From a virus, in UHGV virus genome UHGV-1813710: a stretch of 13,011 bases of DNA; one strand, written 5' to 3'. The notes beneath the pieces were generated by a model that saw nothing but the letters and a program-made list of their open reading frames with translations, made no database searches and was not told the DNA's origin. Of this stretch, positions 1-13,011 are shown one piece after another. How positions within the stretch are numbered: the first letter of the stretch is position 1; every line of letters starts with the position of its first letter. A program made the position numbers and the translations under genes.

Positions 1-688
1 ATGACCAAAACTGCTTTATGCCGTGGCGTGTTGATGGGCGCTGCTTACGCTCGATGATCCCCATCCTCTCAAGAATCGTGTTGGCCACTACTGCGCTCAG
101 GTCTGATCCGTGGCGCTTTAATAGCGTAGTGATTGCTGCTGTTGTGCGGCTTGAACCATCTATCGCGCCAGCTGGAGCATCAATAGCATAGGCGGGCATG
201 AGTTGAGGCACGCCCGCAAATTCTTGCAACTTTTGCAGTGCGCCAAGGCGTGATGAGTTAGACAGATTGAGCAATCTGGTTGCCGAGTCGATGATCATCA
301 AGCCGCACTGCACTTTTTCAGCAATAGCCGGATCGGTAGCTACTGGCGGCGCTAACTGCTGCTCTAGCTCTGTCATGTGATCAAATACTTTGGCTTGAAT
401 AGCGTAGCTGTAGCTCATAGCCATCAAGCAGGCTTCGCGCTTTGGAAGTTGCAGGCACGGTAACTCGCGGCCGGTGCTATCTGTATACTGAGCGAAAAAT
501 TTTGCTAAGTGCTTTTCACCCAAAACTTTTGGCGATTTAGTCAAAAAATCCGCGTGTCGGAGTTGTGCGTGTCCCTTGCTAGGAAATTCGCAACCAACAG
601 CCTCGGCTTTCGATTTGCGCTCTGCATTGATGTAGTCCACCAGCTCAAGGCTTGTCATCGTGATTTGAGTTGTGGGTAAATTAATCAT
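1..688 (-). CDS. Phage regulatory protein, Rha/antirepressor-like (N-terminal DNA-binding region plus KilAC-like C-terminal region); C-terminus truncated by window start
   Basis: Open frame on the minus strand from ATG at 688-686 (MINLPTTQITMTSLELVDYINAERK...) to the window edge with no stop. Not in the ORF track because it is incomplete. GAGGGGG Shine-Dalgarno lies 4-10 nt upstream, and the ATG directly follows the TGA of the upstream ORF. Motifs such as PKREACLMAMSYSYAIQAKVFD recall phage Rha/antirepressor families (from memory, unverified). A second in-frame ATG sits at 658. Confidence 0.6.
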   Translation of the reverse strand, partial: MINLPTTQITMTSLELVDYINAERKSKAEAVGCEFPSKGHAQLRHADFLTKSPKVLGEKHLAKFFAQYTDSTGRELPCLQLPKREACLMAMSYSYAIQAKVFDHMTELEQQLAPPVATDPAIAEKVQCGLMIIDSATRLLNLSNSSRLGALQKLQEFAGVPQLMPAYAIDAPAGAIDGSSRTTAAITTLLKRHGSDLSAVVANTILERMGIIERKQRPSTRHGIKQFWS

Positions 689-1689: not shown

Positions 1690-1773
1690 CACCTATAAAA
1701 TGAACTTAAAGTACATTCTATGTCAGAACTGAAAGTACATGCAAATGATTCTACAATTGAACCCATGGTACAA
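1690..1773. promoter_or_regulatory. OR-like immunity switch: three 17-bp bipartite operator-like repeats with putative divergent promoters
   Basis: Repeats ATGAAC-TTAAA-GTACAT (1700-1716), CAGAAC-TGAAA-GTACAT (1724-1740) and TTGAAC-CCATG-GTACAA (1757-1773). Candidate leftward promoter on the minus strand: TTGCAT (plus 1744-1739), 18-bp spacer, TAGAAT (plus 1720-1715). Candidate rightward promoter: -10 TACAAT at 1752-1757, placing the transcript start near the ATG at 1765 (leaderless, as for lambda cI). Confidence 0.45.
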
Positions 1774-2745: not shown

Positions 2746-2783
2746 GCAATAATTTCAATAAATTAAATACAACAACCAATAAA

Positions 2784-2830
2784 ATGTACTTCTGGTACTT
2801 GATTAAATTGAACCAATAGTACATTATAAA
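2784..2830 (+). promoter_or_regulatory. OL-like site: two more copies of the operator motif overlapping a putative rightward promoter
   Basis: TTGAAC-CAATA-GTACAT at 2808-2824 (same orientation as the OR copies) and ATGTAC-TTCTG-GTAC at 2784-2800 (inverted copy with a perfect GTACAT half-site on the minus strand). Centres are 24 bp apart, the same spacing as OR copies 1 and 2. TATAAA at 2825-2830 is a possible -10. Confidence 0.4.
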
Positions 2831-2898
2831 TCCATCAACCGCAGTCACTAGCACTATCAGTGGTTGTGGATACTTAAGAGACTTAGGTGGGAGTTCAA

Positions 2899-3159
2899 AT
2901 GACTAGTTATTACACGTGCTCTTTTTGCGGGATACGCGAGCAGGATGCTAAAAGGATTGTTGCCAAGGGTGGCAGAGATGAGCCAGCAATCTGCTCTAAG
3001 TGCATTGTCTCATGTGTAAATGTCATTATTAACGCAGGAACAGTAATGGAAATAGAGAAAAAAGGCGCCAATAAGGGTGAATTAATCCTTGATATGGAAT
3101 TGGCACCTCGATCAGAAAAAATGTCATTTACTCAGACTGAGGTAGCTCAATCGGATTAA
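2899..3159 (+). CDS. Small protein (86 aa) with a ClpX-type C4 zinc-finger (ClpX N-terminal zinc-binding-domain-like) and no ATPase domain
   Basis: Sequence MTSYYTCSFCGIREQDAKRIVAKGGRDEPAICSKCIVSCVNVII has C-x2-C-x19-C-x2-C and parallels the ClpX N-domain (recalled E. coli motif YCSFCGK…RKLIAG…ICDECVDLCNDII). GGGAG Shine-Dalgarno 6 nt upstream of ATG 2899; the track's 2887 start is GTG. Confidence 0.65.
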   Translation: MTSYYTCSFCGIREQDAKRIVAKGGRDEPAICSKCIVSCVNVIINAGTVMEIEKKGANKGELILDMELAPRSEKMSFTQTEVAQSD

Positions 3160-3403
3160 GCGCCATTGACGCCATTGGTAGCTGAATCAATGAGATCGGC
3201 AAGTTGGATAAACTTCTCTCTACCAGTTGACCTTAAGACACTACTGGCATTAGCAGAACAAGCATCACTGGAATATGCCGCTAGCAAGCATATAGCGGTC
3301 TTTAAAGCGCCGAGTTCTTCAATTAAACCTTCTGGCGTTACGTCGTTATCAAGTGACAGTGTGAAATTTGGCATTTTTATCTCTATGTGATTGGTGTACG
3401 ACA

Positions 3404-3440
3404 GGTGGCGACATTGGCCACCACGCTCTTTAAAAATCTG
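3404..3440 (+). terminator. Hairpin with weak T-tract between the convergent genes (possible terminator)
   Basis: GGTGGC (3404-3409), 7-nt loop, GCCACC (3417-3422), followed by ACGCTCTTTAAAAATCT. The T-tract is interrupted, so termination efficiency is uncertain. Confidence 0.3.
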
Positions 3441-3458
3441 GATATCCCTAGTCGATAG

Positions 3459-3971
3459 TTAGAAGATCATTGGAGCGATATCTATTGGCTCATATGCCGA
3501 TTTGTTCATTAGAAAAAGGCTGGCGCAATGAAAGCATTTGCATTGTTCAAAGTAACAAGAGTTATTCGAATTATATCCAACCTCTCCTGTTGGCTGGAGT
3601 ATCGATACTATTTTTTGTGTGAAGCATTTTGGGCAAAGATGCACGGCTATTTGCATTCCGTTAACAGATTCATTCTTAGAATAAACAAACGTTCCAGAAT
3701 CAAGCTGGTTCAGAGCATAACCTTCAGTCTGGCTTTTAAAGTCTTCGAACTCTGCAATTTTTGCTTTGAGCGTTACGGCTTCTTCCTGATAAAAGCGTGC
3801 AAGCTCAATGAGCGACATGCATTCACGCTGCACAGACGTAAGCTTTAAAACCATATCGCTAACAGCAGAATTTATCTCTGCCTGTGTTTTTGCATTTGAA
3901 ATAACTTTCGCCAAAGCAGTCGTTTCTTTAATTGCCGACATTGCAGCTGTGATTTCAACAAACACTTTCAA
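3459..3971 (-). CDS. Hypothetical protein (170 aa): helical/coiled-coil N-terminal half, Cys-rich C-terminal half; AT-rich moron-like gene
   Basis: Protein-like ORF convergent with the flanking rightward genes; the opposite-strand ORFs (3528-3848, 3808-4008) look like antisense artefacts. C-terminal half has a CPKC…C…CKCFHC pattern suggesting metal binding. TTG start at 3971 with no clear Shine-Dalgarno; alternative ATG at 3941. Sequence is visibly more AT-rich than neighbouring phage genes. Confidence 0.5.
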   Translation of the reverse strand: MKVFVEITAAMSAIKETTALAKVISNAKTQAEINSAVSDMVLKLTSVQRECMSLIELARFYQEEAVTLKAKIAEFEDFKSQTEGYALNQLDSGTFVYSKNESVNGMQIAVHLCPKCFTQKIVSILQPTGEVGYNSNNSCYFEQCKCFHCASLFLMNKSAYEPIDIAPMIF

Positions 3972-4269
3972 TACTCATATAGTCGTTGGGGATATTCAGA
4001 CTAACTGAATTCTTGTTGTTGGGGAATAGCAGGAACCACTGCCGCCTGAAGTGGAAAAATAAACAGGCTAAATAAGTTACATGTGAATCATCAGCAGCAG
4101 ACCAGCCGGCGGTGTCTTAACACCGGCAGTACATAATGAATAGCCACTACTCTCCGGGTATTCATGTATGCACGGACAGCTCGGAAAGACGTAGCCGCCT
4201 GATCCACGTTAAGGATCACACAACCGCATGGGTATTTAGATTCAGGGGCGTTTCGAGTACCCAGCCGGT

Positions 4270-4313
4270 TGTGGTGTAGCGGTTACGCGCTGGTTCAAGT
4301 CCAGTCACCACAA
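4270..4313 (+). other. tRNA-like minihelix (acceptor stem, U8-A9, short hairpin and T-arm, but no anticodon arm)
   Basis: TGTGGTG (4270-4276) pairs perfectly with CACCACA (4306-4312). TA follows at 4277-4278, then a GCG-GTTA-CGC hairpin (4279-4288), then T-arm GCTGG-TTCAAGT-CCAGT (4289-4305) with a canonical T-loop sequence, then an A at the discriminator position. Confidence 0.35.
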
Positions 4314-4339
4314 AATATGTTCCATCGCTGTGTAGTCTT

Positions 4340-4406
4340 GGCGGTTGCAGGGTTTCAACCTTTAGAGGATTGATGACTGTTATTTGTCCTGTAACCGCCC
4401 TTTTTC
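4340..4406 (+). terminator. Long hairpin followed by T-tract upstream of the early operon (candidate terminator or attenuator)
   Basis: GGCGGTTGCAGG (4340-4351) pairs with CCTGTAACCGCC (4388-4399): 12 bp including one G-T pair, 36-nt loop, followed by CTTTTTC (4400-4406). Confidence 0.35.
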
Positions 4407-4493
4407 ACCACACAGAGAGAAGTGCTTGTTGAGTGCTGCCCTGTGTGTGGAGAACGTATCGCGATGTGCATCGCACTTTCTGAGGGTCAAACA

Positions 4494-4868
4494 ATGAGTA
4501 AAGAAAATCGCATGACAGTAGTGCCCGAGTTCTTGGGCGAACTGGATGCAGGGATCTTTGAAAATAAGATTGCTGCAGCGTTAAACAGTACCGCTTTAGG
4601 CGTTCTAAACAACGGCGGTAAAGGTCAGGTTGTTGTTACGTTTGATATTGATCGACTGAGCAATTCGGTTGAAGAAAAACGCGTTGGTATTAAGCATAAG
4701 TTGAAGTTCGTTACACCTACCCCACGGGGCAAAGTGTCAGAAGAAGACACCACGGAAACGCCTATGTACGTAGGGAAAGGTGGCAAGTTAACAGTATTGC
4801 AAGAAGATCAAGGGCAACTGTTTTCAATCGATGGCGCCCCGGATGGAAAATTGCGCCAAACGCAATAA
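4494..4868 (+). CDS. Hypothetical phage early protein (124 aa)
   Basis: ATG at 4494 with GAGGG Shine-Dalgarno 7-11 nt upstream. The track's longer form starts at 4422, but that extension is encoded by a palindromic leader and is Cys-rich. Confidence 0.6.
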   Translation: MSKENRMTVVPEFLGELDAGIFENKIAAALNSTALGVLNNGGKGQVVVTFDIDRLSNSVEEKRVGIKHKLKFVTPTPRGKVSEEDTTETPMYVGKGGKLTVLQEDQGQLFSIDGAPDGKLRQTQ

Positions 4869-4925
4869 TCTTGGCAATTAAATAAACCTCACCATTTTAT
4901 TACTTAATTAAAGCAAGGATAAAAC

Positions 4926-5753
4926 ATGTCACAAGTAGACGGTTCAGCTATTCAACAAATTAAAGATCTTTCACTGGCTGCATTTTATTTAGACCCAATT
5001 AAATCAACTAACTGCCCTGCAGTTATTATTCCGTCTGATTATCAAGTTAAGAGCTTGGAAAGCTTAAATGATGGTCGTTTTCGTTTTCGCGGCAAATTAA
5101 GCACAACTAGCATTGCTGATTTTGTTCGTTATTCATCTGCATACTCTGAAGGTCAGCCGGGCGCCAGTTGTTTTATTGACGCTGACAATATGTGTGCAAC
5201 ATCCGTTTTCAACCTAGGCACGCTTGAGAGCGCAGGCCACGCTGATAACACTGCAGCAATCGCTTTGAAAAAAACAGCACCATTCTGTGCTCTGCTTGAT
5301 TTCAATGGCGAAAAGTCACGCCAAAAGCAGCTTGCAGAATGGCTAGAGGATTGGAGCGACTTCCTCACCGCCTTTGATGCAGACGGCAAGGTACTTCCAA
5401 TTAAACAAGCTGTTAGCGCCATTCGCCGTATTACCATTGAATCAGTGCAAAGTGCGGATCATGAAGATGCTGATTTCAGCGGTAAGCAGTCATTGATGCA
5501 AAGTGTAGAGGCTAAAAGCAAAGAGATCATGCCTGTGGCCTTTGAATTTAAGTGCGTACCTTATGAGGGCTTATCCGAGCGCCGTTTCAGTCTGCGTAAT
5601 AGTATTCTGACGGGGGACACGCCTTTATTCGTTCTGCGTATTGTTCAACTGGAAGCTGTAGAGGAAGAAATTGCAAACGAATTCCGTGATCTGCTCACAG
5701 AGCAATTCACAGGCAAATCAATTGAAACCTTTATTGGTAATTTTAAAGCCTAA
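4926..5753 (+). CDS. Hypothetical phage protein, DUF2303/YfdQ-like (recollection, unverified)
   Basis: 275-aa ORF with AAGGA Shine-Dalgarno 7 nt upstream of the ATG. Its size and the following HD-domain gene resemble the yfdQ-yfdR arrangement of the E. coli CPS-53 cryptic prophage. Confidence 0.65.
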
Positions 5754-5779
5754 TTATTAATAACATTTAATACAGCCTT

Positions 5780-5803
5780 AAGCACCGAGCATATTCGGTG
5801 CTT
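5780..5803 (+). other. Perfect 8-bp stem hairpin in the intergenic region between early genes
   Basis: AAGCACCG (5780-5787), 8-nt loop, CGGTGCTT (5796-5803). The downstream tract is only moderately T-rich, so it may be an attenuator or processing/stability element rather than a strong terminator. Confidence 0.3.
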
Positions 5804-5843
5804 AGTGAAGTGTTATCTGTTTAATGTGTGGAGAAATTAAAAA

Positions 5844-6377
5844 GTGAATAGCCCTTATATTATTACCTTCTCAGGTAAAGCATTTAATTTAATCGAGCCT
5901 CAGCGCGAGCAAATAGTGATCGAGGATATTGCTCATGCGCTAGCGAGAGAAAACCGCTTTAACGGTCACACTAAGGCCGCATACAGCGTTGCCCAGCACT
6001 GCTATCACGCATCATTTTGTGTACCGCCAGAGTTCGCACTTGAGGCGCTAATGCATGATGCTGCCGAGGCTTACATCAAAGATATTCCATCACCAATAAA
6101 GCTTCTTTTGCCAGATTATCGCGCATTAGAAAAACGCGTTGAAATGGCTATCTGCGAACGATTTGGCCTACCACTAGCGCTGAGTAGCTGCGTCAAATAT
6201 GCAGACCTCATCATGCTGGCATCAGAAAAACGCGACCTTGGCATCGTCGATGAAAAACCGTGGCCACTTTTGGAAGGTATTCCAGTTGCTGATTTCACTA
6301 TCGAACCAATGACTGCAGAAGTTGCCGAGCATCTCTTTATGGGGCGCTACGTAGAATTGACGGAGCTATGCAAATGA
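5844..6377 (+). CDS. HD-domain phosphohydrolase (YfdR/YfbR-like nucleotidase family)
   Basis: HD-domain signature H…H…HD: IAHALARENRFNGH…YSVAQHCYH…EALMHDAAEAYIKDIPSPIK, plus VKYADLIMLASEKRDLG. GTG start at 5844 with GGAG 11 nt upstream. Confidence 0.75.
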   Translation: MNSPYIITFSGKAFNLIEPQREQIVIEDIAHALARENRFNGHTKAAYSVAQHCYHASFCVPPEFALEALMHDAAEAYIKDIPSPIKLLLPDYRALEKRVEMAICERFGLPLALSSCVKYADLIMLASEKRDLGIVDEKPWPLLEGIPVADFTIEPMTAEVAEHLFMGRYVELTELCK

Positions 6378-6754
6378 CGCACATCAGTGAAATACCAGCA
6401 GGAACATTAGTTAAGCAAGCGCATGCAGGCGTGAAGCTTATTGCTGAACAGTATCCAGAGGCAGCGGCAATATTACGTGAAGCCATTACACGCTTTGATG
6501 TGTTGCGTGAGGTCCACCAGCTGACCAACCACAAAGTTAAAAAGCCCGTTACTGATGTGAAGCCTAATGATGTTGTTTGTGTTTTTGGTAAGTGCTACCG
6601 GCTGCGATACATCAACTATTACGGGAACCATTCAGTATTGCGCTTTCAGCCAGCTAGAGAGCCACTATCTCCATATACAGAAAATGATGTGATCAGCATC
6701 GATTTAGCAAATGACATTCTGATTGAGGTTGTGGGGGGGCTGAACAATGTCTGA
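6374..6754 (+). CDS. Hypothetical phage protein (about 126 aa)
   Basis: ATG at 6374 overlaps the TGA of the HD-domain gene (ATGA), with GGAG 8 nt upstream; the track uses the in-frame ATG at 6368. Confidence 0.55.
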   Translation: MTHISEIPAGTLVKQAHAGVKLIAEQYPEAAAILREAITRFDVLREVHQLTNHKVKKPVTDVKPNDVVCVFGKCYRLRYINYYGNHSVLRFQPAREPLSPYTENDVISIDLANDILIEVVGGLNNV

Positions 6755-7499
6755 ATTATCAACTGAGCGTTTAGAAAAATTCGTCAACGATATTAAAACT
6801 GATGGGATGTGCGACATAACTGATTATCAAGTTGCGTTGGCGTTACGTCAGTTACTGGCATACGAGCAAGCAGTACCGGTATTACCTAAACAGCCTGAGA
6901 CTCAGTTCGATGAAATCGCGCTTGATACTGCAAGAGAGATTATGCGTGATGTAAACCAGCGCCATGAATTGATTGGCGGTGAGTGTCAGTTGCTTGCGCG
7001 CACTCAGTGTCGAATTAATGACGTACTGTGTAACGTCGCAGCACCAGCACAACCTGTAATACCAGAACAAGCTAAGCCTGTGGCATATACAGACAATAGA
7101 AACTTAAAAAGTCTACAGAAAGGATGTAATACGGCATTGCTCTGGCTTAAGCATAACGCCGAAGTTGGTGATATTCCTCTATATACCGAAGTGCCGACAC
7201 AACCTGTAAGCGAGCCTTACAAGCTACCAGTCGGATATTTTTCTTATGGCTCTGAGTGTGGTTTTGATTGGCACAATACAGAGAAAGAAGCGATTGAAGC
7301 TGCCGAGGCTGTAATTGACAACTATCGCGGTGATGCGTGCGACGGCTGGTCTGAGGAAACAGACAGTGTCTGCTGGGGTGTCATTTTGCAACAGGCAACA
7401 AAGGTCGATGAGCGCCCACGTACTGATGATGATAAATGCGATCCGGCTATTGATACGGTCTGTGATTACGCGCTACTACCGGCGCAGGAGAGCGAATAA
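6747..7499 (+). CDS. Hypothetical phage protein (250 aa), Cys-containing C-terminal region
   Basis: Start overlaps the upstream gene by 8 nt, with a GGGGG Shine-Dalgarno. Ends in …AQESE, whose codons form the Shine-Dalgarno for the next gene. Confidence 0.6.
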   Translation: MSELSTERLEKFVNDIKTDGMCDITDYQVALALRQLLAYEQAVPVLPKQPETQFDEIALDTAREIMRDVNQRHELIGGECQLLARTQCRINDVLCNVAAPAQPVIPEQAKPVAYTDNRNLKSLQKGCNTALLWLKHNAEVGDIPLYTEVPTQPVSEPYKLPVGYFSYGSECGFDWHNTEKEAIEAAEAVIDNYRGDACDGWSEETDSVCWGVILQQATKVDERPRTDDDKCDPAIDTVCDYALLPAQESE

Positions 7500-8263
7500 T
7501 GCGCCCTCACTTTCACGGAACCCCGATTTGGGGGAATGCTGGCGATGTTTTGCGTGTTGCTGTTAGCGGAGCTGGTGCATTCGTTTCTTACGTTAGACCA
7601 GACCAGATTGAGCGCTGTTTTAAATATGCGGATAGTGTAGCTATCGATAACGGCGCGTTTTCAGCATGGAAAAGCGGCAAGAAATTGGATTGGAATAAAT
7701 TCTATGAATTCCTGTACAGGCATTATCACCGCTCAAAGCTTGCATTTTTTTGTATTCCAGACGTTGTGGAAGGTGGTGAAAGCGATAACGACGCAATGAT
7801 TAAAGCCGTTCCGCACATATTCAAAGAAAAAGCAGCTCCGGTTTGGCATTTACACGAATCTATCGAGCGCTTAATTCGTTTGTGCGAAGAGTGGCCGCGC
7901 GTGTGTTTTGGCTCGTCTGGTCAGTACGCGCGAACATTAACAAAGCTATGGCATGAGCGCATGAAAGAAGCTTTCACGGAGATTTATATCAAGCGCCAAC
8001 TGACAACGAAAATACACGGACTACGCATGCTTGATGGTCGCATTTTGGGTAACTACCCGCTACACAGCGCAGATAGCACAAACCTAGCATGCAACGTTCC
8101 AAAATTTAACATGAAGTATCCAGAGCTAACCCGAGCTGTATTAGATAAGGGGTATGGTCAAGACATGGTTCAACTACACCGTTGCGCGATTCTAAAAAAC
8201 TCAATTGAGTCAGTAACACCGCCGAGCATCGCGGCGTGGGTAGCTGCACAGGAGAGCGAATAA
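7499..8263 (+). CDS. Hypothetical phage protein (254 aa); weak, unverified resemblance to tRNA-guanine transglycosylase (TGT)/DpdA-type proteins
   Basis: TAATG overlap with the upstream gene. Segments HGTPIWG, VAIDNGAFSAW and GLRMLDG loosely parallel the TGT segments PVGTYG, LTDSGGFQV and GIDMFDCV (recollection, not a computed alignment). Confidence 0.6.
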   Translation: MRPHFHGTPIWGNAGDVLRVAVSGAGAFVSYVRPDQIERCFKYADSVAIDNGAFSAWKSGKKLDWNKFYEFLYRHYHRSKLAFFCIPDVVEGGESDNDAMIKAVPHIFKEKAAPVWHLHESIERLIRLCEEWPRVCFGSSGQYARTLTKLWHERMKEAFTEIYIKRQLTTKIHGLRMLDGRILGNYPLHSADSTNLACNVPKFNMKYPELTRAVLDKGYGQDMVQLHRCAILKNSIESVTPPSIAAWVAAQESE

Positions 8264-8264
8264 T

Positions 8265-8549
8265 ATGGCTCGGACGATTAACGACTCTATAGATGCAACT
8301 ATAGCCTCTCTCGTTAGTAACATTCACAACTTGCGCAAAGAAGTAGAAGAATCAGCCGTTCTACGACTGGCAAGCTTCCGCCAGCGCGAACTAATGATCG
8401 AAGGCGTTCGACAAATGTCCGCGCATTACAAAAAGGAGGCGAAAAGCTTTATGGACTCACAAGATCAAGTTGAGGCCATTGATTGCAGCTATATCGCTAA
8501 AAAGTGTGATGCATTTATTGCGCACATTATGAAGCAGGAGAGCAAATAA
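8265..8549 (+). CDS. Hypothetical phage protein (94 aa), predicted helical
   Basis: ATG 2 nt after the upstream stop, preceded by the same CAGGAGAGCGAATAAT junction motif. Confidence 0.55.
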   Translation: MARTINDSIDATIASLVSNIHNLRKEVEESAVLRLASFRQRELMIEGVRQMSAHYKKEAKSFMDSQDQVEAIDCSYIAKKCDAFIAHIMKQESK

Positions 8550-8911
8550 TGCCGACTAACAAGATAACAGAGCATTATCTTAGTTCATTGATCGTTAGAT
8601 TGCGCCGCCGCGCGTTTGAACTGACAGGGACTCAATCAGCGAATCTTATGAATGAAGCAGCTAAAGCGATCTATGAATTTCGTGAGTATAGAAGAGCTAA
8701 TCCAGCGTTGCCCGCCGGCTGGAAGATAGCCCCGCGAGATCCGGATGAGGAAATGATTATAAGGGGTTTTGAGTCTGAACCCGATGAATCATTCAGCACG
8801 CCGGAGGATTGGGAGCGGTACGAAAAAATGAGTGGATGCGAGCAAGCTGCGCATAGAGTCAAATTAAGTTGGACTGCAATGTTTGATGCAATACCCCCCA
8901 TTAAGGATTAA
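8549..8911 (+). CDS. Hypothetical phage protein (120 aa)
   Basis: TAATG overlap with the upstream gene; third copy of the junction motif (CAGGAGAGCAAATAATG). Confidence 0.55.
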   Translation: MPTNKITEHYLSSLIVRLRRRAFELTGTQSANLMNEAAKAIYEFREYRRANPALPAGWKIAPRDPDEEMIIRGFESEPDESFSTPEDWERYEKMSGCEQAAHRVKLSWTAMFDAIPPIKD

Positions 8912-9505
8912 ATGATGATCGACTCAATTGTTATTGATACCGAAACTATGGATGTGCGCCCATCTGCATTATTGCTTTCAATCGGCGCAATTGCATTCGA
9001 TGTGACAGATCTCGAAGCGCTTCGCTACAACATTTCTTATGCAGTTAAAGCGGAGCACCACAGCAGTGAGTCATATGTTTTCTATCATCTGCTAGATGCT
9101 AATTCACAGATCATGGTAGGCCGCACCGTGTCTAGAAGCACTCAGATGTGGTGGAGGGGGCAAGGTGATTCAGCAAAAGCAGCGTTGGATGGCGATAAGC
9201 AAGATCTAAAAGAAGTACTTGAAGCATTGACGCACTGGATAGCTCAATATCCAGATGCACAGATTTATTTTCGTGGTACTGACTTTGACGGTTCTATTCT
9301 CGAGAGTGCGTATCGAGCTTACGACTTGAAATGTCCGTGGAAATATAATGGCAAGCGCGATGTACGTACATTCATTGATGCATTGAGCGGGAGCGATAAG
9401 GGTTATATTGCAGATCATGAACCTTGCTTTGCAATGATTAAGCATAATTCACTTCATGATGCGATGAACGATGCAGAGCAAATGGCTATAGCTCACTCTC
9501 TTTAA
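8912..9505 (+). CDS. DEDDh-type (DnaQ-like) 3'-5' exonuclease
   Basis: Exo I-like IVIDTETMD, Exo II-like FRGTDFDGSILESAY and Exo III-like HNSLHDAMNDAEQ are present in the expected order and spacing. ATG immediately follows the upstream TAA. Confidence 0.75.
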   Translation: MMIDSIVIDTETMDVRPSALLLSIGAIAFDVTDLEALRYNISYAVKAEHHSSESYVFYHLLDANSQIMVGRTVSRSTQMWWRGQGDSAKAALDGDKQDLKEVLEALTHWIAQYPDAQIYFRGTDFDGSILESAYRAYDLKCPWKYNGKRDVRTFIDALSGSDKGYIADHEPCFAMIKHNSLHDAMNDAEQMAIAHSL

Positions 9506-9513
9506 TAATTTAC

Positions 9514-9545
9514 GGCCCGTGTGCAGCGGGCCATATTTAATTTAT
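9514..9545 (+). terminator. Hairpin with AT-rich tail between the exonuclease gene and xis (weak terminator or attenuator)
   Basis: GGCCCG (9514-9519), 7-nt loop, CGGGCC (9527-9532), followed by ATATTTAATTTAT. Confidence 0.35.
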
Positions 9546-9563: not shown

Positions 9564-9782
9564 ATGGCGAAAGAAGCTAAATTGATGCGCGCGAGCGCGT
9601 GGGGCAAGCGTGAGTTCGAGGTGGGTTCTATTCCTGATAATAGAACTATTAGGCGCTGGATAGAAAATGGCCGTTTGCGTGGCCGGATTGTTGATGGAAC
9701 CATTTTGGTTTATTCATCTGAACGCTGGGGTATTGAGTCTGTTGTATCCCACCACGTACATAATTTAATTAGTGAATCATGA
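9564..9782 (+). CDS. xis: Excisionase (lambda Xis-like)
   Basis: Lies immediately upstream of int with an ATGA overlap. Segment RTIRRWIENGRLRGRIVDGTILVYSSE parallels lambda Xis ETVRRWVRECRIFPPPVKDGREYLFHES. GGAG 9 nt upstream of ATG 9564; the track's 9519 start lacks a Shine-Dalgarno. Confidence 0.75.
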   Translation: MAKEAKLMRASAWGKREFEVGSIPDNRTIRRWIENGRLRGRIVDGTILVYSSERWGIESVVSHHVHNLISES

Positions 9783-10960
9783 TGGCAGCTCGACCACGCA
9801 AGCGTGAAAACCGGCACCTTCCCGATCTGCTGTATTTCGATAAAGTTGCCGGCGTTTATCGCTTTACCCTAATCACGGGAAAGAGAAAATCATTAGGCTC
9901 TGACCGTGCTTTAGCAATCGCTATTGCGCGTGAATATAACAATAGAATGCGACCGGATATAGTTGTATCAGTTGACTCGCTTATTAGTGAATCGGGCGGC
10001 TTGAAGGGGGAATCCCTGCCCTTCTCCAGTCATGTTGATCATATTCTCGCTCGTGCTATCACGGACGAGAAACCAAGCCCTGATACAAAGGCTGACTGGA
10101 TGAATGATGCAAAACGAGTGAAAGAATTCTTCATTGACATTCACTGCTGCGATATTGAACTAGAGCACGTCAATGCGTTCATTCAGCATTATCATGCTGA
10201 AGCATCAGCAAACGTACAAAACCGCAAAGTTAGTTTTCTAAAGAAATTATTTAGTTATGCAGTAGACGAATCGTTAATGTTCGATAATCCAGCAACTAGA
10301 AAGAAAATGCGGAGAATTGAGGGGAAAGTTCGCCAACGCTTATCTTTCGACAATCTGATGGCTATACGAAACGCCGCGGATCGATGGCTGCGAACTGCGA
10401 TAGATCTAGCTCTACAGACAACGCACGCCCGGCTTGAAGTTTCCCGAATTCGCTATTCAATCAAAGAGCCCAAAAATGGCGTGTGTGGCTGTGTGTGGTT
10501 CGACGCTCCAGAGAGTGGGATTTATGGCGTTATGTATATACACAGGCAGAAAGTGCAGCACAAAGAAGCATCACACGTCGCAATACCAATCGGGCCTGAA
10601 CTTAAAAGAATTATTGATGATAGCCGCGACAATGCTGCTAGCCCATACATTGTTCATCGTTTACCAAAACGCAATAATAAGCCAAGCAAAGAGGTTTCAC
10701 ATCCTACACAAGTAGCGCCAGACTACTTGAGCCGGGCATTCTCAACACTTCGAGATGAGCTCGGGATTTGCTCACATCTTGAAATGGATGAACGTCCGAC
10801 ATTCCATGAAATCCGAGCGCTTGCTGCACACCTATTTGATACGCAAGGCATTGACCCACAGGGCCGCATGGCTCACAGCGACGCTAAGTCGACTAAGATA
10901 TACACGCAAAATCATATCGATTGGGTCATGGTGCCGCACGGCGAGATCAAGACGGGATGA
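9779..10960 (+). CDS. int: Tyrosine site-specific integrase, lambda Int family
   Basis: N-terminus RENRHLPDLLYF…GKRKSLGSDRALAIA parallels lambda Int HERRDLPPNLYI…GKEFGLGRDRRIAIT. C-terminus has PTFHEIRALAAHLF (H-x-x-R box) and …STKIYTQNH (catalytic Tyr). Adjacent to xis and to the tRNA-derived att core. Confidence 0.95.
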   Translation: MMAARPRKRENRHLPDLLYFDKVAGVYRFTLITGKRKSLGSDRALAIAIAREYNNRMRPDIVVSVDSLISESGGLKGESLPFSSHVDHILARAITDEKPSPDTKADWMNDAKRVKEFFIDIHCCDIELEHVNAFIQHYHAEASANVQNRKVSFLKKLFSYAVDESLMFDNPATRKKMRRIEGKVRQRLSFDNLMAIRNAADRWLRTAIDLALQTTHARLEVSRIRYSIKEPKNGVCGCVWFDAPESGIYGVMYIHRQKVQHKEASHVAIPIGPELKRIIDDSRDNAASPYIVHRLPKRNNKPSKEVSHPTQVAPDYLSRAFSTLRDELGICSHLEMDERPTFHEIRALAAHLFDTQGIDPQGRMAHSDAKSTKIYTQNHIDWVMVPHGEIKTG

Positions 10961-11037: not shown

Positions 11038-11094
11038 GTCGACAACCTAGAGAAACCAGTGCTGGCGCGGGTTTCAGCGTGTTGAATACGCTAA

Positions 11095-11140
11095 CATGGG
11101 GTGTCGGGGGTCGGAGGTTCAAATCCTCTCGTGCCGACCA
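11095..11140 (+). other. Partial tRNA: 3' about 45 nt of a tRNA-Pro-like gene (anticodon loop to CCA), i.e. the att core repeat at the prophage boundary
   Basis: T-arm GGAGG-TTCAAAT-CCTCT (11113-11129), acceptor 3' strand CGTGCCG, discriminator A and CCA (11138-11140). No complementary 5' acceptor strand (CGGCACG) upstream, so the tRNA is not intact. GGG sits at the inferred anticodon position and the string matches my recollection of enterobacterial tRNA-Pro. Confidence 0.65.
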
Positions 11141-11152
11141 AATAATCCCAAG

Positions 11153-11182
11153 AAAACCAACCTATTATGGGTTGGTTTTTTT
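11153..11182 (+). terminator. Rho-independent terminator (tRNA-gene-type) just outside the att core
   Basis: AAAACCAACC stem, TATTATG loop, GGTTGGTTTT pairing, followed by a run of T residues to 11182. Confidence 0.7.
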
Positions 11183-11453
11183 ATGTCTTCAATTTGTCAC
11201 TACGGCCAATATTACGCGCAGCAAGAAGTAAAAAAGCCCCCAAAGTGATTGGGTGGCGGGCTGAGGAAGTGCTCGAGATGGCTGAAGCAGGACTGATATA
11301 CGACGAATTTAGGGTAGTCTAAAGCTATTTGAATCCTCATGACCACGCTGAGGTTGAGGTATACTGCTTCAGAGCGGGGTAAATAAATTACGTCGCTATA
11401 GACAGACATAGGGATTGTCGCAGTTCTGGTCAGAAGACATTAGGATTGAGAAT

Positions 11454-11780
11454 ATGGAAATAAATCACTGCGAATTATATGTCAAAGACCTTGTCGGCCT
11501 GTCCCTGATTTTGATTGTGTGGGCTGTACTCGTCTGGAACTTCATTTCCTGCTGTTTCACAGGGCGTGCTAGCTTTATGTTTTCCCGTTATAGCTTCAGA
11601 CGCACCAAGGACGAATTGGGAATCATTGGGGATCGAACGGGAAGTAAGATACTCTATTTCTTAGCTATGGCGCTCAAGTTACTTTTAATTGTATTTTTTT
11701 CATACAGTGTATTTGTGCCATTGTTCAGCCCTGGAGTATTTGAGGAAGTAATGGGCCACATTTTTACCTGCCATAAATGA
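11454..11780 (+). CDS. Possible small membrane protein (two hydrophobic segments); doubtful
   Basis: ATG at 11454 with AGGA 9 nt upstream; the track form starts at TTG 11415. Two hydrophobic stretches (LVGLSLILIVWAVLVWNFI and ILYFLAMALKLLLIVFFSYSVFVPLF). Could equally be a degraded region. Confidence 0.25.
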   Translation: MEINHCELYVKDLVGLSLILIVWAVLVWNFISCCFTGRASFMFSRYSFRRTKDELGIIGDRTGSKILYFLAMALKLLLIVFFSYSVFVPLFSPGVFEEVMGHIFTCHK

Positions 11781-11989
11781 GTTCTGATACTCTACCCTCC
11801 CCCCACGGTGAACTTTTAATGTTAATAAGTTTGTTCATTTCGTTACGTTGCTTCTGCAGATGGAGCCCCTCTATAACGAATAAAAAAACAATCATTAGGG
11901 TCTTTTAATACCTAATTAACCAAAAGTAACATAGCATTTTCATAATAGATAAAATTAGATATAATCAAATATTATCTATTATTAATAGC

Positions 11990-12997
11990 ATGGCTAATTT
12001 TTATTACATGGATACAGACAAAAATTTCAATCATGAAAATGATTCACTATTCAAAAAAAACACTATTAAAACAAGCAATAACAATCTAAAAGTACTAAAT
12101 ATTGCATTCTGTTTTGATGATAATTTTGTGATGCCAACAGGTGTAGCCATTGCATCTGTCATTGAAAACAATAAAGACTCGCACCTCCACTTTCATTTAT
12201 TCTTCGAATCCATTTCTGAAAAAAACAAATCTAGAATACTTGAGATACAAGGTGATAACGTTTCAATAACAACATATGAACTTCAGGAAGAACTATCCGT
12301 CAATCCTAATACACTCATTCTGGGAATCCCAAAGTCCACGTGCTTAAGATTTATGGTTCCTTTTGTTCTACGGCATGAGGTTGATTCTGTTTTATATTTG
12401 GATGGCGATATGATTTGCTTAGATTCATTACACGCCTTACATGACCTAAACCTTAAAGGACATATTGCCGCTGTAGTTGCTGACTCTAAAGAGATGCAAC
12501 AGAAAGCCAGCACACTAGGATACGGTATTGATACCGATAAATATTTCAATGCAGGATTTTTATTTATCAATGTATCTGAGTGGAATTTTAAAAATGTCAC
12601 CGCCGTGGCATTTAACATGATCAATAGCGGTACAATTTATAAATATGCCGATCAGGATGTATTAAATATACTCTTAAACGAAAACATTAAATTAATTGAC
12701 AAGAAATATAATAAAACTATAACGCTAAGCCCTATCGATAGGGTAGATGATAATGCATCTCGTGGCACAACCATTTTGCATTATGTTACAAAAAATAAAC
12801 CGTGGTTTATGATATTTGAGTCTCAGATTTTCTTTTATTACCTGAATCAATCTCCATGGAAAGACACGCAATTAAAACTGACACCTAATGCTAGCCTGCT
12901 TAGAATAAAGGCAAAAAAACTCCTTTCTGATAAGAAATTTGTCGATTGGATAAAATATTTCTCCCTATATATTAAATATAAATTATTTAGCAAATAA
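11990..12997 (+). CDS. Glycosyltransferase family 8 (LPS/LOS glycosyltransferase-like, RfaJ/LgtC type)
   Basis: GT8 hallmarks: NIAFCFDDNFVMPTGVAIASV (nucleotide-sugar binding region), YLDGDMIC (DxD motif), NAGFLFINVSEW, YADQDVLN and HY…KPW. Very AT-rich gene preceded by an AT-rich promoter-like region. Confidence 0.8.
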   Translation: MANFYYMDTDKNFNHENDSLFKKNTIKTSNNNLKVLNIAFCFDDNFVMPTGVAIASVIENNKDSHLHFHLFFESISEKNKSRILEIQGDNVSITTYELQEELSVNPNTLILGIPKSTCLRFMVPFVLRHEVDSVLYLDGDMICLDSLHALHDLNLKGHIAAVVADSKEMQQKASTLGYGIDTDKYFNAGFLFINVSEWNFKNVTAVAFNMINSGTIYKYADQDVLNILLNENIKLIDKKYNKTITLSPIDRVDDNASRGTTILHYVTKNKPWFMIFESQIFFYYLNQSPWKDTQLKLTPNASLLRIKAKKLLSDKKFVDWIKYFSLYIKYKLFSK

Positions 12998-13011
12998 AAC
13001 CATCAGCATTA

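What the first reader, a model, noticed from the sequence alone, without database searches (positions are those of the whole stretch)
8912..9505. DEDDh exonuclease as the only recognisable nucleic-acid enzyme in the early operon
Exo I/II/III motifs are all present, but no Bet/RecT/Erf-type recombinase, Gam, or lambda Exo-type nuclease is recognisable in the 4.5-10 kb early region. The DnaQ-like exonuclease, next to xis-int, may therefore serve recombination, primer or RNA processing, or anti-defence (for example degrading signalling nucleotides).
Basis: partly seen in the sequence, partly recalled or inferred. Interest (0 to 1): 0.35.

Follow-up and report, generated by a model that had tools for sequence, protein, structure and literature searches.

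The report
Prophage DexA-like 3'-5' exonuclease gene
This is an ordinary accessory gene of a lambda-like prophage: it encodes a small DNA-end-chewing (3'-to-5') exonuclease of the same family as phage T4 DexA, a gene type already described near the integrase gene of many temperate phages, and its exact job in the phage life cycle is still unknown.

Summary
The ORF at 8912-9505 (+; real start probably 8915) is a real gene. It encodes a DEDDh 3'-5' exonuclease of Pfam PF16473 (Rv2179c-like/DexA family; E 7e-32). All five catalytic residues are present: D9, E11, D126, H178 and D183. Its closest solved relative by sequence profile and by fold is phage T4 DexA.

It is the last tightly packed gene of the repressor-controlled early-left operon of a lambdoid prophage inserted at a tRNA-Pro gene. 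A conserved hairpin, xis and int follow it.

"Only nucleic-acid enzyme" is overstated: the operon also holds an HD 5'-deoxynucleotidase-like gene (YfdR type) and a TIM-barrel gene labelled queuine tRNA-ribosyltransferase-like.

In about 100 related prophages the gene always sits between the cI-type repressor and xis/int. Sometimes it is the only gene there; often an HD gene lies directly upstream.

Zheng et al. 2025 already describe DnaQ-type nucleases near int in lambdoid phages. Kang et al. 2025 describe bacterial DexA homologues as anti-T4 nucleases.

Verdict: new member of a known kind, low interest. It is most likely a stand-alone DexA-like DNA 3'-end/oligonucleotide exonuclease made during lytic growth.

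The parts
8912..9505 (+). DexA/Rv2179c-family DEDDh 3'-5' exonuclease gene (197 aa from 8912; probable true start ATG 8915, 196 aa)
   Evidence: ORF list; PF16473 E 7.3e-32 and phrog_255 E 6.5e-55; AlphaFold model pLDDT 87.7; top PDB fold and profile match is T4 DexA
8903..8907 (+). Shine-Dalgarno AAGGA. The upstream ORF's stop codon TAA (8909-8911) abuts the ATG, which indicates translational coupling.
   Evidence: Sequence read directly
8930..8947 (+). Exo I motif VIDTET (D9, E11)
   Evidence: Aligns to T4 DexA D7/E9; D 190/191 and E 191/191 in the family alignment
9272..9301 (+). Exo II motif RGTDFDGSIL (D126)
   Evidence: Aligns to DexA D119; D in 189/191 sequences
9443..9460 (+). Exo III motif HNSLHD (H178-x4-D183), the 'h' of DEDDh
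   Evidence: Aligns to DexA H186/D191; H178 in 189/191 sequences; H178 and D183 invariant in alignment A3
9514..9542 (+). G+C-rich hairpin GGCCCGTGTGCAGCGGGCC followed by a T-rich tail, directly after the exonuclease stop codon. It is either a terminator-like or an RNA-stability element.
   Evidence: Terminator scan. The same hairpin follows the gene in the 10 closest related loci, whichever xis/int type comes next.
5844..6377 (+). HD-domain phosphohydrolase (YfdR / dNMP-phosphatase-like) in the same operon. It is a frequent direct upstream neighbour of the exonuclease elsewhere.
   Evidence: phrog_318 E 4.9e-79, Pfam YfbR-like E 1.3e-5. Immediately upstream of the exonuclease in 22 related loci, and present in 33 of 85 operons.
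4422..5753 (+). YfdP-like (4422-4868) and YfdQ/DUF2303 (4926-5753) genes at the head of the tightly packed block
   Evidence: PF27127 precomputed and PF10065 E 2.5e-70; YfdQ matches PDB 9o7m at E 2e-43
7499..8263 (+). phrog_887 TIM-barrel protein labelled queuine tRNA-ribosyltransferase (possible TGT/DpdA-like base-exchange enzyme; unconfirmed)
   Evidence: phrog_887 E 5e-82; AlphaFold pLDDT 89; only weak fold matches to Cap10 and ArcTGT; no Pfam or PDB sequence hit
9564..10960 (+). Putative excisionase (9564-9782) and tyrosine integrase (9779-10960) downstream of the exonuclease
   Evidence: Integrase: phrog_1 E 1.2e-25. xis is assigned by position, by 75% identical ORFs upstream of int in related loci, and by a weak TIGR01764 hit, E 0.067.
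11095..11140 (+). 3' 46 nt of a tRNA-Pro gene, marking the attachment-site end of the prophage
   Evidence: 95.7% identical to E. coli tRNA-Pro plus its terminator over 11095-11188; the Rfam tRNA score of 19.4 bits is below the 29-bit threshold
2780..2823 (+). oL-type operator copies downstream of the cI terminator. These place the start of the early-left transcript that would reach the exonuclease.
   Evidence: TGAAC-N5-GTACA at 1701, 1725, 1758 and 2809; 4 matches against 0.62 expected; direct-repeat families D1, D2 and D5

Best explanation
The gene encodes a small, single-domain, metal-dependent DEDDh 3'-to-5' exonuclease of the DexA/Rv2179c family. Shown here: the fold and the complete catalytic pentad D9, E11, D126, H178 and D183. 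Inferred from the family: the four acidic residues hold two Mg2+ ions, and H178 activates the water that removes one nucleotide at a time from a free 3'-OH end, releasing 5'-monophosphates. Inferred from the nearest characterised relative, T4 DexA: the preferred substrates are DNA 3' ends, single-stranded DNA and short oligonucleotides, and the protein probably works as a dimer. Inferred from anatomy: it is translated as the last member of a translationally coupled block of the cI-controlled early-left transcript, so it is made after induction or infection, not in the quiescent lysogen. It works on its own rather than as the dedicated partner of a phage annealase. It would trim or clear 3' tails, single-stranded DNA and oligonucleotides during phage replication and host-RecBCD-dependent recombination. 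Where an HD nucleotidase is encoded next to it, the dNMPs it releases would feed that enzyme.
For: Family and catalytic residues. Structure: the AlphaFold model has pLDDT 87.7. The best PDB fold matches are T4 DexA 8ken/8kel (E 7.6e-12, TM 0.67-0.70), followed by RNase T. The best viral matches are phage DexA / exonuclease A proteins (TM 0.7-0.8). Sequence profiles hit DexA over its full length at E 1.1e-11 (close relatives) and E 1.5e-31 (80 diverse relatives). DexA is an experimentally characterised 3'-5' DNA exonuclease used for host-DNA scavenging and for 3'-end processing in intron homing (PMC12153337). Operon anatomy: gaps between successive genes from HD to the exonuclease are -10, -8, -1, +1, -1 and 0 nt (coordinates). 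No convincing promoter lies directly upstream. Operator repeats define oR and oL upstream, and CII-, Cro- and CI-like genes are present. Autonomy: in about 100 related prophages the gene always lies between the cI-type repressor and xis/int. In 9 of them it is the only ORF of at least 50 aa on that strand in that interval. Link to nucleotide turnover: an HD gene is directly upstream in 22 loci and present in 33 of 85 operons. No Rec module is present, and there are three same-strand Chi sites against 0.28 expected. This fits the 'no Rec module, Chi-rich' lambdoid class of PMC12315714.
Against: No biochemistry exists for this protein or for any relative above about 30% identity. DNA versus RNA preference is inferred only from DexA, which is about 27% identical. 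The family's namesake, Rv2179c, is an exoribonuclease. Temperate lambdoid phages are not known to degrade host DNA, so a scavenging role as in T4 is not obviously needed. In E. coli, 3'-5' exonucleases usually inhibit rather than promote recombination (noted in PMC12315714). Sixty-one percent of related operons lack the HD gene, so the HD link is optional. Expression timing is inferred from gene order, not measured. Two opposite-strand ORFs (3156-3971) and a 450-nt non-coding stretch lie between oL and the block, so an internal promoter cannot be excluded.
Confidence: 0.55

Rival explanations
1. Prophage-encoded defence (HREX-like). The exonuclease is made in the lysogen and selectively degrades the modified DNA of superinfecting phages, as reported for the E. 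coli DexA homologue EcD against 5hmC-containing T4.
For: Kang et al. 2025 (PMC12153337) show that a bacterial DexA homologue cleaves T4 DNA but not unmodified DNA and protects E. coli when expressed from a plasmid. They propose that changes around DexA D169 could retarget such enzymes to other modifications. The window protein is a full-length DexA homologue. One homologue (P0046, 44% identity) carries an N-terminal Lar restriction-alleviation-type zinc ribbon, which links the family loosely to restriction biology.
Against: The gene is embedded in, and translationally coupled to, the repressor-controlled early-left operon. The residues reported to recognise 5hmC are not conserved: DexA W152 aligns with N146 and D169 with K163. 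By contrast, the E. coli lambdoid homologue of mEpX2 keeps a Trp at that position. PADLOC gives only a partial hit to a generic Cas-associated DEDDh model, E 2e-5.
Confidence: 0.12
2. Dedicated recombination nuclease. The exonuclease is the nuclease component of a non-canonical recombination module, working with an unrecognised annealase (for example YfdP/YfdQ or RdgC) or with host RecA/RecBCD.
For: Distant homologues sit inside canonical Rec modules: Rad52-type SAP-SSB-exonuclease-Abc2 in mEpX2, and the DnaQ-type nuclease in epsilon34 per PMC12315714. RdgC homologues occur in 20 of 85 related operons, and the YfdP-YfdQ pair directly precedes the exonuclease in L010 and YfdQ does in L012. YfdQ has a solved structure with 36 chains in one entry, suggesting a large oligomer.
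Against: No annealase, SSB or anti-RecBCD family is detected in the window or in the close relatives sampled. The gene persists as the sole gene of the interval in 9 loci. Zheng et al. state that int-proximal DnaQ-type nucleases are not counted as Rec-module members and often coexist with a separate full module. A 3'-5' polarity destroys the 3' tails that annealases and RecA use.
Confidence: 0.15
3. Exoribonuclease. The protein trims RNA 3' ends (as Rv2179c or RNase T do), for example processing or degrading host or phage transcripts or tRNAs.
For: The Pfam family is defined by the M. tuberculosis 3'-5' exoribonuclease Rv2179c. NCBI names several close homologues '3'-5' exoribonuclease'. After DexA, RNase T is the next-best fold match.
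Against: The only solved relative found by sequence profile is the DNA exonuclease DexA, at E 1.5e-31; no Rv2179c entry was retrieved. The RNase T fold matches are much weaker (E about 1e-6, 11-16% identity). The database names are automatic transfers of the Pfam label, not experimental results.
Confidence: 0.1
4. Anti-defence enzyme that destroys immune signalling nucleotides or other small nucleic-acid signals.
For: The early-operon position is typical of anti-defence genes. DEDDh enzymes such as oligoribonuclease degrade short linear oligonucleotides (general knowledge). The CBASS-associated Cap18 appears among the weak fold matches.
Against: DEDDh exonucleases need a free 3'-OH, and cyclic oligonucleotides have none. 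There is no similarity to known anti-CBASS, anti-Pycsar, anti-Thoeris or ring-nuclease families in the Pfam, PHROGs or PADLOC scans. The family is huge and sits in many contexts, including lytic jumbo and T4-like phages.
Confidence: 0.04

Closest known systems
Bacteriophage T4 DexA (exonuclease A; PDB 8KEL/8KEN)
   Same: Same Pfam family. The profile aligns over the full length (E 1.5e-31). It is the best fold match (TM 0.67-0.70). The catalytic pentad is identical in register.
   Different: Only about 27% identical. DexA carries extra loops and helices and is 227 aa. The DexA 5hmC-recognition residues W152 and D169 are not conserved here (N146, K163). T4 is a lytic phage that degrades host DNA and has modified DNA; this is a temperate lambdoid prophage.
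DnaQ-type nucleases of lambdoid phages (Zheng, Casjens, Davidson, Amundsen & Smith, Genome Res 2025, PMC12315714)
   Same: Same gene type in the same place: the early-left operon, very near int, in a phage without a canonical Rec module that carries the yfdP-yfdQ-HD cluster and Chi sites.
   Different: That study covered 325 mainly E. coli/Salmonella phages. This one belongs to a Hafnia/Serratia/Edwardsiella-type lineage, and its exonuclease is 27% identical to the one Rec-module example aligned here, mEpX2. The paper assigns no function to the int-proximal copies.
EcD / HREX bacterial DexA homologue (Kang et al., NAR 2025, PMC12153337)
   Same: Short bacterial or prophage-borne DexA homologue with an intact catalytic site.
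   Different: EcD keeps the Trp and acidic residues proposed to read 5hmC; the window protein does not. The defence role was shown with plasmid expression only.
Mycobacterium tuberculosis Rv2179c (founding member of PF16473)
   Same: The Pfam model built around it matches at 110.9 bits over residues 5-190.
   Different: Rv2179c is a chromosomal exoribonuclease. No Rv2179c structure or sequence was retrieved by my profile searches, so no residue-level comparison was made.
Hafnia phage yong2 gene product QXN68752.1 ('3'-5' exoribonuclease')
   Same: Closest sequenced phage relative (67% identity). It has the same operon: cI, YfdP-like, YfdQ, HD, several small genes, then the exonuclease at the int end.
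   Different: The yong2 integrase is on the opposite strand and of a different type. The genes between HD and the exonuclease differ. Nothing is known experimentally.
Lambda Exo / Rac RecE
   Same: They occupy the same general region of the early-left operon in other lambdoid phages.
   Different: They have an unrelated PD-(D/E)XK fold and the opposite (5'-3') polarity, and they work with Bet/RecT. No such family is detected here.

Membership tests
DEDDh (DnaQ-like) 3'-5' exonuclease superfamily | Exo I motif D-x-E | tested here: met
   D9 and E11 in VIDTET; 190/191 and 191/191 conserved; invariant in A3
DEDDh (DnaQ-like) 3'-5' exonuclease superfamily | Exo II aspartate | tested here: met
   D126 in GTDFDGSIL aligns with DexA D119; 189/191 conserved
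DEDDh (DnaQ-like) 3'-5' exonuclease superfamily | Exo III H-x4-D (the 'h' subtype rather than 'y') | tested here: met
   H178-NSLH-D183 aligns with DexA H186/D191; both invariant in A3
DEDDh (DnaQ-like) 3'-5' exonuclease superfamily | RNase H-like alpha/beta fold | tested here: met
   AlphaFold model pLDDT 87.7. Foldseek matches DexA, RNase T, Cas2-DEDDh, the DnaQ domain, Cap18 and TREX-like enzymes, all at probability 1.00.
DEDDh (DnaQ-like) 3'-5' exonuclease superfamily | Metal-dependent 3'-5' exonuclease activity | not testable with these tools
   Needs purified protein
PF16473 Rv2179c-like / DexA family | Score above the Pfam gathering threshold over the whole domain | tested here: met
   110.9 bits against 27; residues 5-190 match profile positions 2-172 of 177
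PF16473 Rv2179c-like / DexA family | Full-length homology to an experimentally characterised member | tested here: met
   Profiles A1 and A3 hit T4 DexA (8kel) at E 1.1e-11 and 1.5e-31 over residues 5-204
PF16473 Rv2179c-like / DexA family | Homodimeric (or dimer/tetramer) assembly | not testable with these tools
   Only single-chain prediction was available
HREX (EcD-type modification-dependent defence exonuclease) | Trp equivalent to DexA W152, which stacks on 5hmC | tested here: not met
   W152 aligns with N146. That position is N, G or Y in close relatives, while mEpX2 keeps a Trp there. Caveat: a conserved W143 lies three residues upstream, and the alignment in this loop is not certain.
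HREX (EcD-type modification-dependent defence exonuclease) | Acidic residue equivalent to DexA D169 | tested here: inconclusive
   D169 aligns with K163, but D162 is adjacent, and the column is highly variable and gapped
HREX (EcD-type modification-dependent defence exonuclease) | Loss of the tetramer-forming D90 | tested here: inconclusive
   D90 aligns with E101, so the acidic character is retained, in a poorly conserved helix
HREX (EcD-type modification-dependent defence exonuclease) | Expressed in the uninfected cell or lysogen, and protects against modified-DNA phage | not testable with these tools
   Gene order and operator positions argue for repression in the lysogen, but this was not measured
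Lambdoid Rec module nuclease (sensu Zheng et al. 2025) | [quoted passage not shown] | tested here: not met
   No such families are found in the window. The gene lies at the int end. This contrasts with mEpX2.
Lambda Exo / RecE 5'-3' exonucleases | PD-(D/E)XK (YqaJ-type) nuclease domain | tested here: not met
   No hit to these families for any ORF in 4.4-9.8 kb

The most novel reading that the evidence does not exclude
The exonuclease could be the one indispensable early-left gene of a Hafnia/Serratia/Edwardsiella lineage of lambdoid phages. It persists even where it is the only gene between cI and xis-int, and it carries its own conserved 3' hairpin. One reading is that it performs a modification- or structure-selective DNA degradation step. 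Often paired with a Dmp-like HD nucleotidase, it would degrade a particular class of DNA or oligonucleotide and dispose of the resulting dNMPs. That class could be a competitor phage's modified DNA, or host defence-derived single-stranded DNA. This would amount to a retargeted HREX-like or counter-defence module rather than housekeeping end-trimming.
Probability: 0.1. Interest if true: 0.55.

Novelty: new member of a known kind. Interest (0 to 1): 0.17.

Why it matters
The finding matters little by itself. It is a correctly spotted but ordinary member of a very large phage exonuclease family: 7,365 clusters at 50% identity and 541 sequenced phages carry relatives. Its presence near int in lambdoid phages without a recombination module is already in the literature.

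Its modest value is as a well-defined test case. The physiological role of these int-proximal DnaQ/DexA-type nucleases in temperate phages is unknown. This lineage shows the gene can stand alone in the early-left operon, often next to an HD nucleotidase. That makes a clean deletion or biochemical test straightforward, for example in the cultivable Hafnia phage yong2, whose homologue is 67% identical.

Tried and rejected
1. Megablast of the locus against 5,426 complete E. coli genomes found no match; the phage is not an E. coli phage.

2. NCBIfam gave no meaningful hit for any operon gene.

3. PADLOC gave only a partial hit to a generic Cas-associated DEDDh model (E 2e-5, residues 95-192). I rejected this as evidence for a defence system.

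4. I first read Exo III as H182/D187 from the close-relative alignment. The 191-sequence alignment with DexA showed that the true pair is H178/D183, and that H182 and D187 are subfamily-specific.

5. Single-sequence phmmer against the PDB gave only E 0.03 to DexA. Profiles were needed to reach significance. No Rv2179c structure was retrieved, so a direct comparison with the RNA-specific founder was not possible.

6. I scanned longer family members for informative domain fusions. Nine of ten had no second Pfam domain; only P0046 carries a Lar-type zinc ribbon.

7. I looked for annealases among unknown neighbours in related loci using Pfam and PHROGs. These turned up RdgC, ParB-like, DndB-like, a DNA methyltransferase and a nucleoside 2-deoxyribosyltransferase-like protein, plus a PAPS-reductase-like assignment made by eye only (no Pfam hit), but no annealase.

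8. I tested whether the phrog_887 gene is a DpdA/TGT enzyme. There was no Pfam TGT hit and no PDB sequence hit, and the fold matches were weak (E 1e-3 to 4e-3) among generic TIM barrels. This remains undecided.

9. Rfam found nothing at E up to 0.1 across the window.

10. A literature search on 'DexA' was swamped by dexamethasone papers. Searches for PF16473/DUF5051 and for PDB 9O7M found nothing useful.

11. The EcD sequence (HAK9828821.1) could not be obtained, so there is no direct alignment with it.
Full report
**Observation**

The window is the immunity-to-attachment arm of a lambdoid prophage. CII-like (868-1395, -), Cro-like (1451-1684, -) and CI-like (1720-2700, +) genes are recognisable. 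A quasi-palindromic operator, TGAAC-N5-GTACA, occurs three times between cro and cI (1701, 1725, 1758). It occurs again just after a terminator hairpin that follows cI (2809, with a variant at 2780). That is 4 matches against 0.62 expected, so oR and oL can be placed.

A block of nine same-strand ORFs runs from 4422 to 9505. From the HD gene onward, the gaps between successive genes are -10, -8, -1, +1, -1 and 0 nt (coordinates). The ORF in question (8912-9505) is the last of this block. Its ATG abuts the TAA of the preceding ORF, and an AAGGA lies at 8903-8907. The second ATG (8915) has the better spacing and matches the MIN/MID N-termini of homologues, so the gene product is probably 196 aa.

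Downstream come three features:
- a G+C-rich hairpin with a T-rich tail (9514-9542);
- a 72-aa putative excisionase (9564-9782);
- a tyrosine integrase (9779-10960; phrog_1).

What ARAGORN calls tRNA-Ser is in fact only the 3' 46 nt of a tRNA-Pro gene with its terminator. It is 95.7% identical to E. coli tRNA-Pro, and the Rfam tRNA score is below threshold. This is the attachment-site junction.

**What the ORF is**

It matches Pfam PF16473 (Rv2179c-like 3'-5' exoribonuclease domain) at E 7.3e-32 over essentially the whole domain, and PHROG 255 'exonuclease' at 6.5e-55. Close homologues (41-68% identity) come from prophages of Hafnia, Serratia, Rouxiella, Sodalis, Edwardsiella, Gilliamella and others. 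Where named, they are called '3'-5' exonuclease' or '3'-5' exoribonuclease'. The nearest sequenced phage is Hafnia phage yong2 at 67% identity.

The family is very large. There are 7,365 representatives of 50%-identity clusters at E up to 1e-3, and 541 phage genome records hold a relative.

An AlphaFold model is confident (pLDDT 87.7, pTM 0.85). Its best matches in the PDB are the two crystal forms of phage T4 DexA (E 7.6e-12, TM 0.67-0.70). RNase T, Cas2-DEDDh, a DnaQ domain, Cap18 and TREX-like enzymes follow. Among predicted viral structures the best matches are phage DexA / exonuclease A proteins (TM 0.7-0.8). Sequence profiles reach DexA over its full length at E 1.1e-11 (22 close relatives) and E 1.5e-31 (80 diverse relatives).

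**Catalytic residues**

I rebuilt DexA residues 5-198 from the printed alignment. All residues named in the DexA paper (D7, E9, S87, D90, D119, W152, D169, H186, D191) fall at the right positions. I then aligned it with 190 family members.

The DexA catalytic residues map to D9, E11, D126, H178 and D183 of the window protein. D9, E11, D126 and H178 are conserved in 189-191 of 191 sequences (D183 was not tallied). D9, E11, H178 and D183 are invariant in the 80-sequence alignment. My own first reading of Exo III (H182/D187) was wrong; those two residues are specific to the close subfamily.

**The rest of the operon**

'Only nucleic-acid enzyme' is too strong:
- 5844-6377 is an HD-domain phosphohydrolase of the YfdR / phage dNMP-phosphatase group (phrog_318 E 4.9e-79; Pfam YfbR-like E 1.3e-5).
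- 7499-8263 belongs to PHROG 887, labelled queuine tRNA-ribosyltransferase (E 5e-82).

For the second gene the label is not secure. It has no Pfam TGT hit and no PDB sequence hit. Its confident model (pLDDT 89) is a TIM-barrel-like fold. The best PDB matches are weak and mixed with generic TIM barrels: Cap10 has TMq 0.58 at E 1.4e-3, and archaeosine TGT has E 4e-3. Homologues in HK106, BTP1, SPN3UB and SW9 carry the same automatic label. All 5,344 database homologues that have names are 'hypothetical'.

4422-5753 encode YfdP- and YfdQ-like proteins. YfdQ now has a PDB entry (9o7m, 36 chains), for which I found no paper.

**Context elsewhere**

I collected 23 genome loci and 80 viral-contig loci encoding relatives of 38-68% identity and clustered their ORFs.

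The exonuclease gene is always on the same strand as, and downstream of, the cI-type repressor gene, with xis/int genes of several unrelated types downstream. The genes in between are mosaic. Of 85 loci with the repressor in view:
- 33 have the HD gene;
- 20 have an RdgC homologue (Pfam E 1e-42);
- 13 have YfdQ.

Across all related loci, the HD gene is the immediate upstream neighbour in 22.

Other recurrent neighbours are a DNA methyltransferase, a DndB-like protein, a PAPS-reductase-like protein (assigned by eye; it had no Pfam hit), a nucleoside 2-deoxyribosyltransferase-like protein and a ParB-like protein. No annealase was found.

In 9 loci the exonuclease is the only ORF of at least 50 aa on that strand between the repressor and xis/int. 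One example is L085: cI, a 450-nt gap, exonuclease, xis, int. The GGCCCG...CGGGCC hairpin follows the gene in the ten closest loci, whichever xis/int type comes next, so it travels with the gene.

More distant homologues (27-29% identity) can sit inside a canonical recombination module. In mEpX2 the order is Rad52-type annealase, SSB, exonuclease, Abc2. In PY54 an RdgC-type gene lies upstream.

**Literature**

Zheng, Casjens, Davidson, Amundsen and Smith (Genome Res 2025, PMC12315714) analysed 325 lambdoid phages. They report the following:
- DnaQ-like 3'-5' nucleases inside some Rec modules.
- 'Sporadic' DnaQ-type nuclease genes usually very near int. They do not consider these Rec-module members.
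- The yfdP-yfdQ-HD cluster is common in early-left operons.
- Phages with no Rec module are enriched in Chi sites and rely on host RecBCD.

The window has three Chi octamers, all on one strand, against 0.28 expected.

Kang et al. (NAR 2025, PMC12153337) solved DexA. They showed its role on unmodified and 5hmC DNA. They reported that a bacterial homologue, EcD, degrades T4 DNA and protects E. coli when expressed from a plasmid ('HREX'), with DexA W152 and D169 proposed to read 5hmC.

In my alignment those positions are N146 and K163 in the window protein, whereas the mEpX2 homologue keeps a Trp. Noguchi and Katayama (PMC4776307) showed that E. coli YfdR binds DnaA and that yfdQRST overexpression inhibits initiation.

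**Interpretation**

Shown: this is a real gene for a DexA-family DEDDh exonuclease with an intact active site. It sits at the int-proximal end of a repressor-controlled early-left operon of a lambdoid prophage that lacks a Rec module.

Inferred from the family: two-metal 3'-5' hydrolysis from a free 3'-OH, releasing 5'-mononucleotides. Inferred from DexA: the substrates are most likely DNA 3' ends, single-stranded DNA and oligonucleotides.

Inferred from gene order and operators: the protein is made on induction or infection. Inferred from its persistence as the sole gene of the interval: it acts autonomously.

Inferred from adjacency: where the HD nucleotidase is present, the pair could convert oligonucleotides to nucleosides. 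This resembles the DexA role in T4 and the Dmp role in T5; the T5 point is my own knowledge, not tested here.

I give this reading 0.55. The rivals are:
- an HREX-like defence (0.12), weakened by operon position and by the missing recognition residues;
- a dedicated recombination nuclease (0.15), weakened by the absence of any annealase and by the wrong polarity;
- an exoribonuclease (0.10);
- destruction of signalling nucleotides (0.04), which is mechanistically implausible for cyclic molecules.

**Novelty and verdict**

The enzyme family, its presence in temperate phages and even its typical position next to int are all published. Only the physiological role is open, and nothing in this copy is unusual. 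It is a new member of a known kind, and interest is low (0.17).

The most novel reading not excluded is a retargeted, modification- or structure-selective degradation module, often paired with an HD nucleotidase. I put that at about 0.1.

Noticed in passing
window 11057-11188: ARAGORN's 'tRNA-Ser (tga)' is not a tRNA gene. Only 11095-11140 is tRNA-like: it is the 3' 46 nt of tRNA-Pro, followed by that gene's terminator (95.7% identical to E. coli tRNA-Pro loci). The Rfam tRNA score is 19.4 bits, below the 29-bit threshold. It marks the prophage attachment junction at a tRNA-Pro gene.
   Followed up: yes
window 7499-8263 (+): A 254-aa protein of PHROG 887, labelled queuine tRNA-ribosyltransferase, with a confident TIM-barrel-like model. 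It has 5,344 database homologues, and all that carry a name are 'hypothetical'. Homologues occur in HK106, BTP1 and SPN3UB. It may correspond to the 'singleton DpdA' group of gamma-proteobacterial phages mentioned by Hutinet et al. 2019. However, it has no Pfam TGT hit and only weak fold matches (Cap10, ArcTGT), so a DNA 7-deazaguanine transglycosylase role is unproven.
   Followed up: partly
window 4422-6377 (+); related loci L004-L109: This is a YfdP-YfdQ-HD(YfdR) cluster like that of E. coli prophage CPS-53. In related prophages the HD gene is the immediate upstream neighbour of the exonuclease in 22 loci and is present in 33 of 85 operons. That suggests an optional exonuclease-nucleotidase pair.
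   Followed up: partly
window 4926-5753 (+): The YfdQ/DUF2303 protein matches PDB entry 9o7m ('YfdQ protein', 36 chains in one entry) at E 2e-43. No paper describing that structure was found in the library. The large assembly hints at a ring or filament of unknown function.
   Followed up: partly
window 637-644, 1101-1108, 6514-6521 (all - strand): Three Chi octamers (GCTGGTGG), all in one orientation, against 0.28 expected by shuffling. This is consistent with the 'no Rec module, Chi-rich' class of lambdoid phages that depend on host RecBCD.
   Followed up: partly
window 1701-1772 and 2780-2823; hairpin 2711-2746: The repeated operator TGAAC-N5-GTACA occurs three times between cro and cI and again after a strong terminator hairpin downstream of cI, which defines oR and oL. 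The oR copies overlap the 5' end of the 326-aa cI ORF as listed, so the true cI start is probably further downstream. The cI protein has two HTH regions plus an S24 peptidase domain.
   Followed up: partly
window 2887-4421: Four features lie between oL and the early-left gene block: a small zinc-ribbon (ClpX zinc-finger-like) ORF (2887-3159, +); two opposite-strand ORFs of unknown function (3156-3374, phrog_7249; 3459-3971, phrog_1244, with C-terminal Cys pairs); and a 450-nt non-coding, relatively G+C-rich stretch with inverted repeats (4102-4120 and 4219-4273). The opposite-strand pair looks like an inserted cassette. The non-coding stretch could hold an antitermination or promoter element.
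   Followed up: no
window 9514-9542 (+); L033, L034, L037, L045, L047-L051: The hairpin GGCCCG(N5-7)CGGGCC with a T-rich tail directly follows the exonuclease stop codon. It is conserved in the ten closest loci, although different xis/int types follow. It may terminate or stabilise the early-left transcript ahead of xis-int.
   Followed up: partly
protein P0046 (Gilliamella prophage homologue, 44% identical): A natural fusion of a Lar restriction-alleviation-type zinc ribbon (PF14354, E 4e-13) to the N-terminus of the exonuclease domain. It was the only informative domain fusion found among ten longer family members.
   Followed up: partly
protein P0019 (Rouxiella badensis homologue), alignment A1: This close homologue has Asn in place of the first catalytic Asp (IINIET instead of IDTET), so it may be a catalytically impaired copy.
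   Followed up: no
window 11400-13011: Beyond the attachment site, G+C content drops to 31-37%. A 335-aa ORF (11990-12997) and a 121-aa hydrophobic ORF (11415-11780) lie there. I labelled the larger ORF 'GT8 glycosyltransferase' from its sequence alone. It had no PHROG hit and was not scanned against Pfam, so this is flanking host or island DNA of unverified function.
   Followed up: no
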